Source of the DNA: Eledone cirrhosa
Taxonomy: Eukaryota
DNA length: 64,000 bases
Reading direction: 5' to 3'
NCBI GenBank assembly: GCA_964016885.1
Contig: OZ024756.1
Span: 33,170,001 to 33,234,000, forward strand
Position numbers and translations under genes: made by a program. The notes under the pieces are model-generated. The model did no database searches and was not told the origin of the DNA. It saw only the letters and a program-made list of their open reading frames with translations. Of this stretch, positions 24,615 through 49,555 are shown piece by piece; the stretch's first letter is position 1; each line of letters starts with the position of its first letter.

Positions 24615-24968
24615 ATTAAATAAATAGAAACTATATTTATAAAACCATATTTATTTTATTATATATATTTCAAGGGTACTAAAACACATTGGTACACTTC
24701 TTTCAGATAAAATACAAAGTTTATTTTATAAATAGAAACATACCCAGGAGAATCTTACCTTATCAGTTGAATATTCTCTTGATCCAGAGAATATTCAACT
24801 GATATATATGTAATAAACTTGAAATATATATAATAAAATAAATAGCTTTTATAAATATAGTTTCCATTTATTTAATATCATTGAATATTTACTCCAGAAA
24901 CTGTCGAGTGCTCTAAATCAGTTATACACATTTATATTTGTCGGATTTCCAACAAATATCCCTTCTAC
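24615..24968. mobile_element. PLE-like terminal repeat family A, inverted pair (24615-24673 vs 24818-24878) with a degenerate HHR at 24653-24713 on the minus strand
   Basis: Homologous to 42601-42840, 45131-45249 and 49295-49480; minus strand reads ATTTTAT-CTGAAAG-AAGTGTACC..AGTACCCTT-GAAA-TATATA-TA-ATAAAAT. Confidence 0.75.
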
Positions 24969-26238
24969 TTATATATATATATAAATATATATATATATAT
25001 ATATATATATATATAGAGAGAGAGAGAGAGAGAGAGAGAGCGAGAGAGAGAGAGAGAGAGAGAGAGAGAGATTGTAGAACTTGGGTCGGAATTACGTTAA
25101 GAATACAGGTACAAGTTTAAACATGTAGAATATTTTTAGTTCACAAGCATGCTATTCTCTTGACCAAGCTGAAGGAGGGCTATTTTATTTAAAATTCTTC
25201 TCACTGAAGCGACATTAAACTTTCTGTAATCGTATCAATCTATTCATTCTGTTTCAATTTGACATAACATAATTATTCGACATCTATTTAATCGACGTTC
25301 AAATATAATTACGCCATCCAGACGCAATTATAATTATACAAACAAAATGAATCGATATCTTAAAGGTCATTGATCTAATGTTATATAATTAAATGTGATT
25401 AAATATGTATTGATTTTTATTTATTTTTTTAATTTAAGAACCCCAAACAATCATATTTTTTCTATTATGGTTTTGGAATGTAATATAATTATACTTATAG
25501 CAATTATAATTTTAAAATCAAAGTAAATAAGAATCCTCTATCATTAAAATAAACACGCTTTTTATAATTGTTTCTAAGAACGAGAATATTTCAAGCGATG
25601 AAATACCAATGACGGTTGGCAAATCACTGATGAGGGACTAATTTTATAATATGTAACCCATATGCAACAACGCAGTATCCTTCTTCCCATATTTTTCATA
25701 TATATATATATACAAAGAGAGACGGGAGAGAGAGAGAGGGGGTGTTTGGAACGCGGTGAACGAAGTTTAGAATGGAAGTAGCAATAGAAGCTTCACCGTA
25801 ATACCTTTGGTTTATTCGCCCCTTTATTAGACTATATTATAGAAGAAATATATATATATATATATATATAAGAAAATGAGTTCTTTTTTTTATAAAAAAA
25901 AAACGAGATGTCCTACACGGGAGAAAGTATGAGGAACAGAAATCGAAAATACAATCTAATATCTTCCAACGGCTTTTTAACTTCTCTCTGTGAGACAATA
26001 TATATTTTTTCAGTTGTAAAGGCTATCTCTCTCTCTCTCTATCACCCATCTCTCCTCCTCTCTCATCATTCCTTCTTATACTCCTCCCCCACCACTATTT
26101 TCTCTCATCTCCTCCTCTTCCTTACCCTTTCCAACCCCCCCTCACTTTTTCCCAATATCAATCTTAAATTAATTTTCATATGTTGATTTAAAACTTCACT
26201 ATTCACAAGTGTTTTTTAACCTTCAAATCATGTATACC

Positions 26239-26308
26239 TATTTTATCTGATGAAAACGCAGATATCATTTCATGATGATATTGTTTTTGAAATGCGCATA
26301 ATAAAATA
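26239..26308 (+). ncRNA. Minimal type I hammerhead ribozyme with an intact core (PLE type)
   Basis: TATTTTAT-CTGATGA-AAACGCAGATATCAT-ttcatg-ATGATATTGTTTTT-GAAA-TGCGCA-TA-ATAAAATA; 8-bp stem I, palindromic stem III ATGCGCAT, AUA cleavage triplet. Confidence 0.8.
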
Positions 26309-29300
26309 CTTGGAACTCTTTTAACCATCTTTTGATCTTATATTATATATATAAATATATATATATATATACCATGAAATATTATCGTGACATCATAGTG
26401 ATCGAATTTAAATATTAACATCGATCCTTTACAGACGATTCGCATTTAAACTATAATGGCCTTAACATCTTGCCCCCTATCAAGTTTAACACACTTTAGT
26501 CGATACATCTATGAAAATAAAATACCCGAAATGTGTAATAAGGTTGTAATTAGACATGCAACATTCCACCACAAACTGAGTATTCAGTCTCATCTCGTTT
26601 GGCTCGCTCTTGTGATGCCTAATCCCTGTAAAGCAATTACTGATGGGTTTTTTTCTGAAAGGGAAATGTTACAGAATATAAATATATATTTAATAATATC
26701 ATTGGCATAATGATCGATACCTTATTGAAATTCAGTTAGCAATGTACATATTATATATTTATATATATATATATTTATATATGTGTGTGTATATACATAT
26801 ATATACGTTTGTATATTTTGTATATGTATATATACATTTATATATACGTATATATATATATATATATATATATATATATATATATATATATATATATATA
26901 TATATATATATATATATATATATATATATGTATATATATATATATATATTGGGGTTTAGAAATACGAGGAAAAGATACTAGATACGTAGTTCGTAATAGA
27001 AGGTATGCCCATAAATAATAATAATAATAATAATAATAATAATAATAATAATAATAATAATAATAATAATAATAACAACAATGGTATATGTATACATACA
27101 TTTTGTACTTAATGACTTCATAATTTCATAATACGTAATGCAATTTCATGTTGTGTCTTGTATATGGATGTATGTTCGCGTGTGCTTTAGTACATTATAT
27201 GTAAATATATTAAAGAGAGAAATATATATTAAGTAATATATATCATATATAATGTTTATATAGTTTTACCTAATTTTCTATTTTCATATACATGACTTAG
27301 GTCAATAATTGTGATCAATAATTGTCAGGAAATAAAACAAAAATATATATATATATCTATTGCAAGTGTGGTGAAATGTATTAACATAACATTTTTAGGG
27401 TTAGCATATTGTTATTGATTACCAAATATTAAGAATTATGATTCACGTTGTTGGTTCACAACTTGATTGTGTTTTTATTTTTTATTTATTTAAATTTAAT
27501 TTTATATCAATTAAAACTGAAACTATGAATAATTTGAAAAGAAACACAGAAATACAACAAAGGAAGACGAGAAGCTTTTTTTTTTCAAAATCGATAACAT
27601 CAGATTAGATTATACTGAGATAATATTTTGATTGGTTCAGTAGGAAAACATTATCAACCTATGAGAACATTAATGTCATATTTCATATAGATGAAATACA
27701 TCAAGCCTTTTTGATGTCAAGCGTCAATGTGTCATTCTTTTATTTTCAATAAGTCGTAGAAGTTCGTTCCAAATTTTGATAGCATTAATGTTCAGAGTCG
27801 TTTTAATGGGGTTGTTAATTGCATTCTCTAGCATAGATTGTATATTTATATACTTTTTTTTATTGTTTTCTTTCGATTTGTTAATTATAAAAACTCTATT
27901 GCTTGTGCTTGTTTCCGGCAGAGTTATGTACGTACAAAAGCGAGCATACACGCAGTAACATGAATTTCCTTCCAAAATTTGAATTAAATGTTACACGTTA
28001 TAAACAGCCAATTGAATGCATACACACACGTGCAAGCACGCAGACACACACACACACACACACAGATGTATATATGTATATATATATATATATATATATA
28101 TATATATATATATATATATATATATATATATATATATATATAAATAAATATATATATATATATTCATATATATTATATATATATATATATTCATATATAT
28201 TATATATATATATATATTCAAATATATATGAATACATATATTCATATATATTATATATATATTATATATATATATATTCATATATATTATATATATATTT
28301 ATATATAAATATATATTTATTTGTATATAAATATATATATATGAATATATATATATATAAAAGTATATATATATATATATTCATATATATAAATATATAT
28401 ATATAAATATATATATATATATATACAAATAAATATATATTTATATATAAATATATATATAATATATATGAATATATATATAATATATATGAATATATAT
28501 ATATAATATATATGAATATATGTATTCATATATATATGAATATATCTATTATATATATGATATATATATATATATGATTATATATATATATGAATATATA
28601 TATATATATGAATATATATATATATGCACATATACATATAAATATATATATATATATATATATGTGTGTGTGTGTGAATATATATATATATATATATATA
28701 TATATATGTGCGTGTGTGTGTGTGTGTGTGTGTCTGTGTGTGTGTGTCTGTGTGTCTGTGTGTGTGAGAGAGAGAGAGAGAGAGAGAGAGAGAGAGAGAG
28801 AGAGAGAGAGAGAGAGAGAGAGAGAGAGAAAGAGAGAGCGAGCGGTGTGTATGTGTGTATAAACGAACATAAAACAAAGACAGTTAGAACTACATACATA
28901 AATTAAATAACCTTCGTGATGTAGAAATAAATGCAAAAAGTTAAAAAAAAAACGTTACCACAAGATAAAATGAAGAATTAGATGCAGAAAATGTCAATTA
29001 TTTTACGTGATATATTTACGTGCTTTTGTATGCGTATTCTTCATCTTGTTTTATTTGTTTATAAAATAAAAAATGGCGGAGAAATAAAGTCAAGCTATAA
29101 AAATATCTGATCTATTATATGAGACACGGGAATGAGTAGTAAATATATTGATGGAGAGATATGTTAATGGAACGTACTGCGTTTGTTAAAATAGATTAAT
29201 GATATTTTATGTATTTAATGGCACACAGTTAAGGGCTTTTATATTATATTATATGTTATATGTATATACATATGTGTGTATATATATATATATATATATA

Positions 29301-48700: not shown

Positions 48701-49333
48701 TTAATGATGATAGTAAAAAGTATAGTAAATGAAGAAATCAGTTTTGATTTGACGTGAAATAATTATGATGTGACTGAGATGATGATGCTGGTGTTCTTAA
48801 TATTGATATTGACAACGAACCATTGCATGGTGTATGCCGTGATAATATCCCATTTCCATCTTGTTATTATTTATACATTGATATCACGAGAATATGAAAG
48901 ATAATGCACTTCCGACAACACATTAAATGCTTCCGCCTAAGAACGTTAAATTTACTGAGCTATTAACAATAGAAACCATACAACAATTACTAATAGAGTA
49001 CATGCATACATATATACATATATATATATATGTGTGTGTATGTGTGTGTGTGTGCGTGTGTGTGTATATGTGTGTGTGTGTGTGTGTGTGCGTGTGTGTG
49101 ACTGTGTGTGCAGGTGTGTGCGTGTGTGCTAATGCATTTGTGTAAGGAGTGATCATCTTATAAGTGTGAATATATAAATAAATACATTATATTATATATC
49201 CCCGAGGTTAACTTTGCCTTTCATCCTTACGGGGTCGATACAATAAAGTACCAGTAATACACTGGGGTAATAGCTGACCCTGTGCCATTATTTAAGGGTA
49301 TGTCAATATTTGTTTATAAAACTGATTTATTAT

Positions 49334-49396
49334 ATTTTATCTGATGAAAGAGCACCATAATTGGCTTTGGTGTCGTTGAAATATGTATAATGAAAT
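49334..49396 (+). ncRNA. Minimal type I hammerhead motif in the family A copy at 49295-49480
   Basis: ATTTTAT-CTGATGA-AAGAGCACCA-taattggctt-TGGTGTCGTT-GAAA-TATGTA-TA-ATGAAAT. Confidence 0.7.
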
Positions 49397-49555
49397 AAAT
49401 ATGGTTTTATAAATATAGTTTCCATTTGTTAATATAATGTATTTTTACTCCAATAATTTGTTGAGTGCTTTATATCCGTTAAAAAAAAAGCAAAATTGGC
49501 CACACGTACATACCTTGTGTTTTTTTTTAAACAAATAACGATCGATTTCAATACT

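What the first reader, a model, noticed from the sequence alone, without database searches (positions are those of the whole stretch)
24615..49480. Family A: TA-embedded PLE-like terminal repeats with a conserved hammerhead and covarying stem II
Seen: copies at 24615-24968, 42601-42840, 45131-45249 and 49295-49480. Three contain ATTTTAT-CTGA.GA-stem II-GAAA-TAT.TA-TA-AT.AAAT. Stem II changes sequence but keeps pairing (GTACC/GGTAC vs CACCA/TGGTG). Stem III is itself a TA palindrome and the copies mostly abut (TA)n. Known: PLE pLTRs encode minimal type I HHRs, and some PLEs favour simple repeats. Inference: a non-coding ribozyme-bearing retroelement family colonising TA microsatellites. With families B-D, this window holds about ten HHR-like relics in 64 kb, so the genome could hold a large unannotated set.
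Basis: partly seen in the sequence, partly recalled or inferred. Interest (0 to 1): 0.75.

Follow-up and report, generated by a model that had tools for sequence, protein, structure and literature searches.

The report
Hydra-clade Penelope ends with hammerhead ribozymes
These four short repeats are cut-off ends of a known kind of protein-coding jumping gene that sits in TA repeats and carries a predicted self-cutting RNA; the motif occurs tens of thousands of times in this genome, and the copies stop at two fixed points, each just before a small conserved hairpin that likely tells the enzyme where to start copying.

Summary
The repeats are real but are not a non-coding family. They are 5'-truncated 3' ends (pLTRs) of four subfamilies of Hydra-clade Penelope-like retrotransposons. 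A full unit (L065, about 3.8 kb) carries a broken ~745-codon RT-endonuclease ORF with the Hydra motifs. Hammerheads and (TA)n insertion are already published for this clade, including an Octopus family (PMC8557442). Two of the four copies have an intact core, not three; copy 1's core is mutated and copy 3 has none. Stem II covaries across 10 subfamilies. Exact patterns match 23,769 times (narrow) and 47,846 times (broad) genome-wide, against 0 for reversed controls. Copies end at two fixed sites about 85-90 nt apart, and back-to-back pairs carry one of each (20 of 20 unselected pairs). Each end lies about 7 nt before a bulged hairpin. The scan noted this twin hairpin earlier on other DNA of this genome; I confirmed it here and did not find it in print. 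Cleavage and expression are untested. Verdict: new member of a known kind, modest interest.

The parts
24615..24783 (-). Copy 1, left arm: truncated pLTR ending at the short 3' end against (TA)n; degraded hammerhead at 24653-24713 (core reads CTGAAAG)
   Evidence: subfamily linked to endonuclease coding sequence in L212 and L213
24786..24970 (+). Copy 1, right arm: fold-back of the junction (24786-24804), a short filler, then pLTR from GAAA onward (no 5' core) to the long 3' end against (TA)n
24891..24909 (+). Hairpin 1 (ACTC-CAG / CTG-TC-GAGT) at the start of the tail
42601..42840 (-). Copy 2: 240-nt 5'-truncated pLTR with long end, (TA)n on both sides; 89% identical to the 3' end of the full-length unit in L068
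42737..42800 (-). Intact-core type I hammerhead; predicted cleavage after AUA at base 42746
   Evidence: cleavage not tested
42662..42684 (-). Hairpin 1 of copy 2
45071..45117 (-).
   Evidence: read by eye
45131..45250 (+). Copy 3, right arm: tail with hairpin 1 (45163-45189) and long end against (TA)n; no hammerhead here, but 8 of the 20 loci fetched with it (itself included) carry one upstream
45306..45340 (-). 35-nt tail end of the same subfamily facing copy 3 across the (TA)n run
   Evidence: read by eye
49295..49480 (+). Copy 4: truncated pLTR, tail cut at 49480, flanked by SINE-like copies rather than (TA)n
   Evidence: subfamily linked to RT-thumb/endonuclease sequence in the two-armed insertion L210
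49332..49398 (+). Intact-core type I hammerhead; predicted cleavage after base 49389
49447..49466 (+). Hairpin 1 of copy 4 (CAA/TTG upper stem, compensatory to CAG/CTG)
26238..26343 (+).

Best explanation
The four repeats are 5'-truncated 3' ends of several subfamilies of Hydra-clade Penelope-like retrotransposons, likely inserted into (TA)n by the element's own endonuclease and reverse transcriptase, and each subfamily carries a predicted minimal hammerhead ribozyme. Shown: homology to coding units, Hydra motifs, two fixed 3' ends, one long and one short end per inverted pair, two bulged hairpins, covariation across subfamilies. Inferred: a read-through RNA from a partial tandem runs past the unit end into the next 5' UTR and so holds both hairpins. 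The endonuclease cuts both strands of palindromic (TA)n. Each DNA 3' end primes one cDNA about 7 nt 5' of one hairpin, and the two cDNAs abort early and are joined 5' to 5'. The hammerhead is kept in the master elements and would need a dimer (self-complementary stem III) or protein help. Most inserted copies read through it, so templates were mostly uncut and most genomic copies are dead relics.
For: L065: partial tandem 2098-3215 plus unit 3216-7368, ORF about 3266-5499, ending in (TA)n. Motifs RWR, DKT, YRDD, CNCRNELNC, VY..YIG, CHLC, CKH/CRH match the Hydra description. 788 of 7,994 scored candidates are homologues at E<=1e-20. (TA)4 follows 95 of 103 short ends and 107 of 127 long ends against a 14% background. 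Back-to-back pairs are long+short in 20 of 20 loci not selected for the tail (P about 1e-6) and 32 of 34 tail-selected ones. Stem II positions 1-3 pair in 30 of 30 cells and position 6 in 10 of 10 (C-G 5, U-A 5) over 10 subfamily medoids; 3 of 20,000 permutations reach the score. Loop III is ATAT, ATGT or GCGC in 159 of 172 copies. The hairpin motif hits the window 4 times, once in each copy; shuffle mean 0.25. PAc cuts and extends both strands from two start sites (PMC11167929).
Against: No intact ORF among the copies examined (longest open stretch 508 aa; 230 aa or less from the ATG in 14 junction copies). Pfam gives no hit for either protein piece, so the domain calls rest on motifs read by eye. 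No tree against reference clades was built. The unit is about 3.8 kb whereas Hydra elements are described as under 3 kb. Copy 3's subfamily was not traced to an ORF. The hammerhead fold is 4-9 kcal/mol above the MFE as a monomer. The permutation test does not correct for relatedness. The hairpins are weak alone (z -0.7 to -1.8), the lower stem of hairpin 1 hardly varies (73 of 76 identical), and hairpin 2 has only one clear upper pair. The 7-nt spacing is unambiguous in only 21 of 80 short copies because element ends merge with TA. In vitro PAc showed no strand difference in start site, which does not by itself predict a strict long+short pairing.
Confidence: 0.85

Rival explanations
1. Most short copies come from a separate non-autonomous RNA (SINE- or retrozyme-like, about 250 nt) mobilised in trans.
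For: 14 of 30 copy-2-type 5' ends cluster at -85 to -126 from the cleavage site. Copies reaching the ORF are a minority. Retrozymes are proposed to derive from pLTRs (bioRxiv 10.64898/2026.07.22.740005).
Against: 5' extents form a continuum from about 90 to over 1,400 nt. Copy 2 is 89% identical to the end of a coding unit. No tandem arrays of this monomer were seen in the fetched loci. The cluster lies near an upstream stem-loop that could stall the RT (read by eye).
Confidence: 0.1
2. Same element, but inverted arms arise by fold-back self-priming on one template (possibly antisense) rather than by priming from both DNA strands; the hairpins are then protein-binding or promoter elements, not start signals.
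For: Palindromes at inverted junctions were read as self-priming in PMC3846280. Copy 1 and L224 have palindromic junctions. Hairpin 2 lies at the unit's 5' end, where two full-length copies begin (L039, L059).
Against: Fold-back alone does not explain why the second arm stops at a fixed site about 7 nt before hairpin 1 in several subfamilies, nor why lone copies often have the short end.
Confidence: 0.2
3. The hammerhead cuts the precursor to define the template's 5' end or make circles, so it is a required step of transposition.
For: Core and stem I are conserved across subfamilies while stem II covaries. Proposed in PMC4209133. A few 5' ends fall at or near the site (L172, L005, one arm of L220).
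Against: 71 of 95 arms not selected by a hammerhead query keep the 5' half of the core. Only 1 of 30 5' ends is at the site and 3 of 30 are 8-10 nt before it, where the TATATATA stem matches the target. Upstream pLTR 5' ends in 14 junction copies are scattered. PAc hammerhead mutants still insert in vitro.
Confidence: 0.2
4. Chance matches in AT-rich, microsatellite-rich DNA.
For: Window GC is about 31%; Rfam finds no hammerhead at either intact copy.
Against: 3 hits against 0.1 expected; 23,769 and 47,846 genome matches against 0 for reversed patterns; homology to coding units.
Confidence: 0.01

Closest known systems
Hydra clade of C-terminal EN+ Penelope-like elements, incl. Hydra-1_Obim of Octopus bimaculoides (Craig et al. 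2021, PMC8557442; sections 3 and 11, passages, and supplement part 2 of 59 plus search hits read)
   Same: Single RT-endonuclease ORF, DKT, RW(K/R), CxCX5C linker, no CCHH, CxxC and CxH, canonical hammerhead near the 3' end, (TA)n insertion, partial tandems and inverted truncated copies.
   Different: Unit about 3.8 kb with a 1.1-1.5 kb 3' region (listed complete Hydra families are 2.1-2.7 kb). The hammerhead differs from that listed for Hydra-1_Obim: AU-rich stem I, long stem II with a constant C.C/C.U mismatch, AU-N4-AU stem III. Tail about 85-90 nt, not 30-40. No twin hairpin mentioned in what I read.
Minimal PLE hammerheads (Cervera and de la Pena 2014, PMC4209133; parts 1-2 of 4 read)
   Same: Type I, thousands of dispersed single motifs from truncated PLEs, pairs on opposite strands 100-700 bp apart, palindromic stem III, covarying families.
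   Different: Pair 10.1-11.1 is A-U or G-U in 9 of 10 subfamilies rather than G-C; the count here is about five times the largest count in the text I read (about 9,000, Xenopus), with different descriptors.
Poseidon_Ac (Frangieh et al. 2024, PMC11167929; parts 1-2 of 4 and passages read)
   Same: Two internal RT start sites bounding the tail, both strands cut and extended, AT-rich target, hammerhead upstream of the start sites and dispensable in vitro.
   Different: There the start sites lie in one AC-rich stem-loop inside the ORF; here both ends lie in non-coding sequence, each before its own bulged hairpin, and the ATG is about 55-60 nt past the long end.
Metazoan non-LTR retrozymes (bioRxiv 10.64898/2026.07.22.740005, part 1 of 5 read; PMC7229834, search listing only)
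   Same: Type I hammerhead, PLE-related.
   Different: Retrozymes are tandem non-coding monomers; family A copies are variable-length ends of coding units.

Membership tests
Hydra-clade PLE | Single ORF with RT and C-terminal GIY-YIG-type endonuclease | tested here: met
   L065-L069 landmarks; RT motifs and VY..YIG/R/E/N read by eye; Pfam gave no hit; all copies seen are broken
Hydra-clade PLE | RWK motif near the N-terminus and DKG changed to DKT | tested here: met
   RLRWRAF (R for K, as in close homologues) and KSDKTNN
Hydra-clade PLE | CxCX5C linker; no CCHH; CxxC and CxH around the conserved E and N | tested here: met
   CNCRNELNC; one Cys between VY and YIG; CHLCIEE..INKK..CKH/CRH
Hydra-clade PLE | Canonical hammerhead near the 3' end and insertion into (TA)n | tested here: met
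Hydra-clade PLE | Generally short (<3 kb); descriptive, not diagnostic | tested here: not met
   unit about 3.8 kb after removing SINE insertions
Hydra-clade PLE | Phylogenetic placement with Hydra RTs; no IFD | not tested
   no tree with reference clades; N-terminus resembles Hydra-1_Obim by eye only
PLE insertion structure | Partial tandem forming a pLTR; inverted 5'-truncated copy; tail on one end only | tested here: met
   tail 85-90 nt rather than 30-40
Type I hammerhead ribozyme | CUGANGA, GAAA, UH core with three stems | tested here: met
   copies 2 and 4; not met in copies 1 and 3
Type I hammerhead ribozyme | G10.1-C11.1 pair | tested here: not met
   A-U 6, G-U 3, G-C 1 of 10 medoids; many published Hydra hammerheads also have U next to GAA
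Type I hammerhead ribozyme | Self-cleavage | not testable with these tools
   needs an in vitro assay
Non-LTR retrozyme | Tandem array of short non-coding hammerhead monomers | tested here: not met
   variable 5' ends running into coding units; no arrays of this monomer seen in the fetched loci; genome-wide tandem search not run
Non-LTR retrozyme | Circular RNA accumulation | not testable with these tools
   no RNA run available

The most novel reading that the evidence does not exclude
Hydra-clade elements carry two copies of a small bulged hairpin, one in the tail and one at the start of the next unit. A protein dimer binds both and starts one cDNA about 7 nt before each, on the two strands of a cut (TA)n. 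This would explain in one rule why PLE inverted insertions have a tail on one arm only and why only partial tandems can transpose, and would name the cis signal of a telomerase-related RT.
Probability: 0.5. Interest if true: 0.65.

Novelty: new member of a known kind. Interest (0 to 1): 0.33.

Why it matters
As a family description it is ordinary: hammerhead-bearing, (TA)n-inserting Hydra PLEs are published, including in Octopus. It adds a copy count (at least 47,846 intact-core motifs of this stem I type, about 16 per Mb) and a natural covariation set for a hammerhead with a constant stem II mismatch. The more useful part is mechanistic. The strict long+short pairing and the hairpin behind each end give a precise, testable prediction for where a PLE reverse transcriptase starts, which PMC8557442 names as an open problem (inverted structures and microsatellite bias).

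Tried and rejected
Rfam: no hammerhead among the 150 listed of 326 window matches, nor in the two intact copies searched alone. The repeat finder was swamped by microsatellites. Pfam gave 0 families for both protein pieces. No Hydra ORF sequence in the window itself. Sequencing runs: no RNA holder listed; no reads were laid, and this says nothing on expression. Template switching onto the 467-nt hammerhead repeat inside L031 was rejected: a TATAAGTA duplication flanks the array and its units are mostly 98-99.8% alike, against 89-95% between the host arms, so it is a later insertion. 5' ends piled at the cleavage site were not seen. The 'relaxed' window scan was not relaxed on stem II and does not test families B-D. 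One script timed out. The earlier-findings look-up by sequence returned nothing. Rows dropped: one search used 151 of 182 arms and clusters of 3 or more; one search left out 8 singletons of 172 copies; three '-317' 5' ends are limits set by a SINE in the reference.
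Full report
Observation. The four stretches are present and homologous. A strict type I hammerhead descriptor gives 3 hits in the window against a mean of 0.1 (maximum 1) in 60 local dinucleotide shuffles: copy 2, copy 4 and a related family at 26238-26309. Copy 1's core is mutated (CTGAAAG; its subfamily reads CTGAGGA) and copy 3 has no core, so 'three intact' should read two. Copies 1 and 3 are back-to-back inverted pairs. Copy 4 is flanked by SINE-like copies, not (TA)n.

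Copy number. The window lies in a 3.0-Gb genome. An exact narrow pattern (stem I 5' strand, core, TTGAAATAT) matches 23,769 times. A broader one with both stem I strands matches 47,846 times and includes related families. The reversed controls match 0 times. These are motif counts: an inverted pair counts twice and mutated cores are missed.

The parent element. Following copy-2 relatives upstream led into coding sequence. L065 holds a truncated copy (2098-3215) directly followed by a full unit (3216-7368). The unit has about 50 nt of leader, an ORF of about 745 codons broken by stops and frameshifts, and about 1.5 kb of 3' region once two SINE insertions are removed; it ends with the hammerhead and (TA)n. 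Copy 2 is 89% identical to the end of the unit in L068. Copy 1's subfamily has endonuclease sequence about 1 kb upstream of the hammerhead in L212 and L213 (58% and 45% identity to the copy-2 type). Copy 4's subfamily closes both ends of the two-armed insertion L210, which holds RT-thumb and endonuclease sequence. Copy 3's subfamily has an upstream hammerhead in 8 of 20 loci but was not traced to an ORF. 'Family A' is therefore at least four subfamilies of coding elements.

Clade. The protein shows RLRWRAF, KSDKTNN, YRDD, CNCRNELNC, VY..YIG with no CCHH, CHLC and CKH/CRH. These are the features given for the Hydra clade in PMC8557442 section 11, which also states that canonical hammerheads are readily detected and that almost all families insert into (TA)n. 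Its supplement lists Hydra-1_Obim from Octopus bimaculoides (2,507 bp, (TA)n) with a different hammerhead. A homologue search gave 788 proteins at E<=1e-20 among 7,994 scored; the 120 listed are 33-49% identical and almost all unnamed. Pfam gave no hit and I built no tree, so membership rests on motifs. The unit is longer than the <3 kb described.

The hammerhead. Among 172 distinct intact-core copies in fetched loci, 10 clusters of two or more were found (8 singletons left out). In their medoids, stem II pairs 1-3 hold in 30 of 30 cells with A-U, G-U and G-C forms. Position 4 is always C.C or C.U, and pair 6 is C-G in 5 and U-A in 5. Three of 20,000 strand permutations reach the score; relatedness is not corrected. 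Loop III is ATAT, ATGT or GCGC in 159 of 172 copies, all self-complementary (ATGT through G.U pairs), so the TA palindrome is a case of the dimer-type stem III of PMC4209133 and not a trace of the (TA)n target. Pair 10.1-11.1 is usually purine-U. The monomer fold lies 4-9 kcal/mol above the MFE. Stem I and the core were fixed by my patterns, so their invariance in this set is partly by construction. Cleavage is untested. Most arms read through the motif: 71 of 95 arms not selected by a hammerhead query keep its 5' half, and 5' ends do not pile at the AUA site. This agrees with PAc, where hammerhead mutants still insert in vitro (PMC11167929).

Two ends. Among 230 distinct family-A arms, 103 stop at a short end and 127 at a long end about 85-90 nt further on; many loci were selected for the tail, so this ratio is not the genomic one. 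(TA)4 follows 95 of 103 short and 107 of 127 long ends, against 14% for random stretches of the same loci. Back-to-back pairs have one end of each kind in 20 of 20 loci not selected for the tail (expected 49%, P about 1e-6) and in 32 of 34 tail-selected loci. An earlier, cruder classifier gave 37 of 42. Ten of 10 pairs picked from the broad pattern list, several from other families and some counted in the 20, show the same by eye. A tail on one of the inverted pLTRs is known (PMC3846280 passages; PMC8557442 passages), at 30-40 bp.

Twin hairpins. I saw the asymmetry. The hairpin lead came from earlier notes of this scan on other DNA of this genome, which are unchecked, and I tested it here. 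A bulged hairpin ACTC-CA(G/A)...(C/T)TG-T(T/A)-GAGT starts the tail. It is found in 76 of 176 intact-core copies (short-end copies stop before it), with G-C, A-U and G-U at its third upper pair. It hits the window four times, once per copy, against 0.25 in shuffles. Short copies of three subfamilies typically stop at TTG, 7 nt before it; by a strict count 7 nt is the commonest spacing, in 21 of 80 short copies, and the rest are blurred by TA or off. Where a pLTR runs into the next unit (21 exact junction matches, against 567 for a comparable long end in (TA)n), a second hairpin GCTC-C...G-T(A/T)-GAGC begins about 7 nt after the long end. Its lower stem has G-C where the first has A-U. Both hairpins are weak in isolation (hairpin 1 folded; hairpin 2 read by eye).

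Mechanism. Shown: structure, ends, pairing, covariation. Inferred, partly from PAc biochemistry: a read-through RNA that holds both hairpins is bound by the protein, both strands of (TA)n are cut, each primes a cDNA just 5' of one hairpin, and the two cDNAs truncate and join. I put the identity at about 0.9 and the hairpin-directed twin priming at about 0.5. The main rival is fold-back self-priming (PMC3846280).

Literature. Five searches listed no paper on octopus PLE hammerheads beyond PMC8557442 and none on paired hairpins at PLE ends; I judged this from listings and the passages named, and the library lacks most subscription journals. The O. vulgaris repeat annotation lists Penelope-like families and has no occurrence of 'ribozyme' or 'hammerhead' in its main text (PMC13282606, passages). 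I did not see its TE library, most of the PMC8557442 supplement (the Hydra DNA consensus sequences), or Repbase/Dfam, so this family may already have a name. That AUA is a usable cleavage triplet is recalled, not from a call.

Verdict. Real, non-random and abundant, but a new member of a published kind. The twin hairpin is the part worth following, and the scan has found it before. Interest 0.33.

Noticed in passing
window 26238-26343 (+): Related hammerhead family with the same stem I and core, a long stem II and GCGC loop III; very frequent in the broad pattern list, often near-identical, with the same hairpin and long+short pairs.
   Followed up: partly
L031:4258-6541: Two-armed tandem array of a 467-nt hammerhead repeat inserted later into an arm of a family-A element, with a TATAAGTA duplication; copies also in L020, L111, L117, L162. 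Probably the family of note e1-8803865.
   Followed up: partly
L065:2532-2728 and 6535-6724; L021; L068; window 49202-49286 and 49550-49735: One SINE-like element recurs inside the 3' region of several copies near the same AT-rich site, in both pLTRs of L065, and flanks copy 4 in inverted orientation; more than a dozen copies in the window.
   Followed up: no
window 45215-45340; L006, L078: Element 3' ends facing each other across one (TA)n run (tail-to-tail); in the window both are of the same subfamily.
   Followed up: no
window 1276-1440, 1685-1770, 14220-14325, 42360-42456: Other inverted repeats, some centred on (TA)n runs; these produce the spurious microRNA matches in Rfam.
   Followed up: no
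relatives of copy 3, L217-L233: Stem I 5' strand is ATTTTGT, with partner ACAAAAT, ACGAAAT or ATGAAAT: a change in stem I that keeps pairing. My TTTTAT patterns miss this subfamily.
   Followed up: partly
L130-L159 (copy-1 subfamily): This subfamily has G at core position 7 (CTGAGGA), where most others have T.
   Followed up: no
window 44324-44631 and 46616 onward: G-skewed arrays of 9- to 15-nt units.
   Followed up: no
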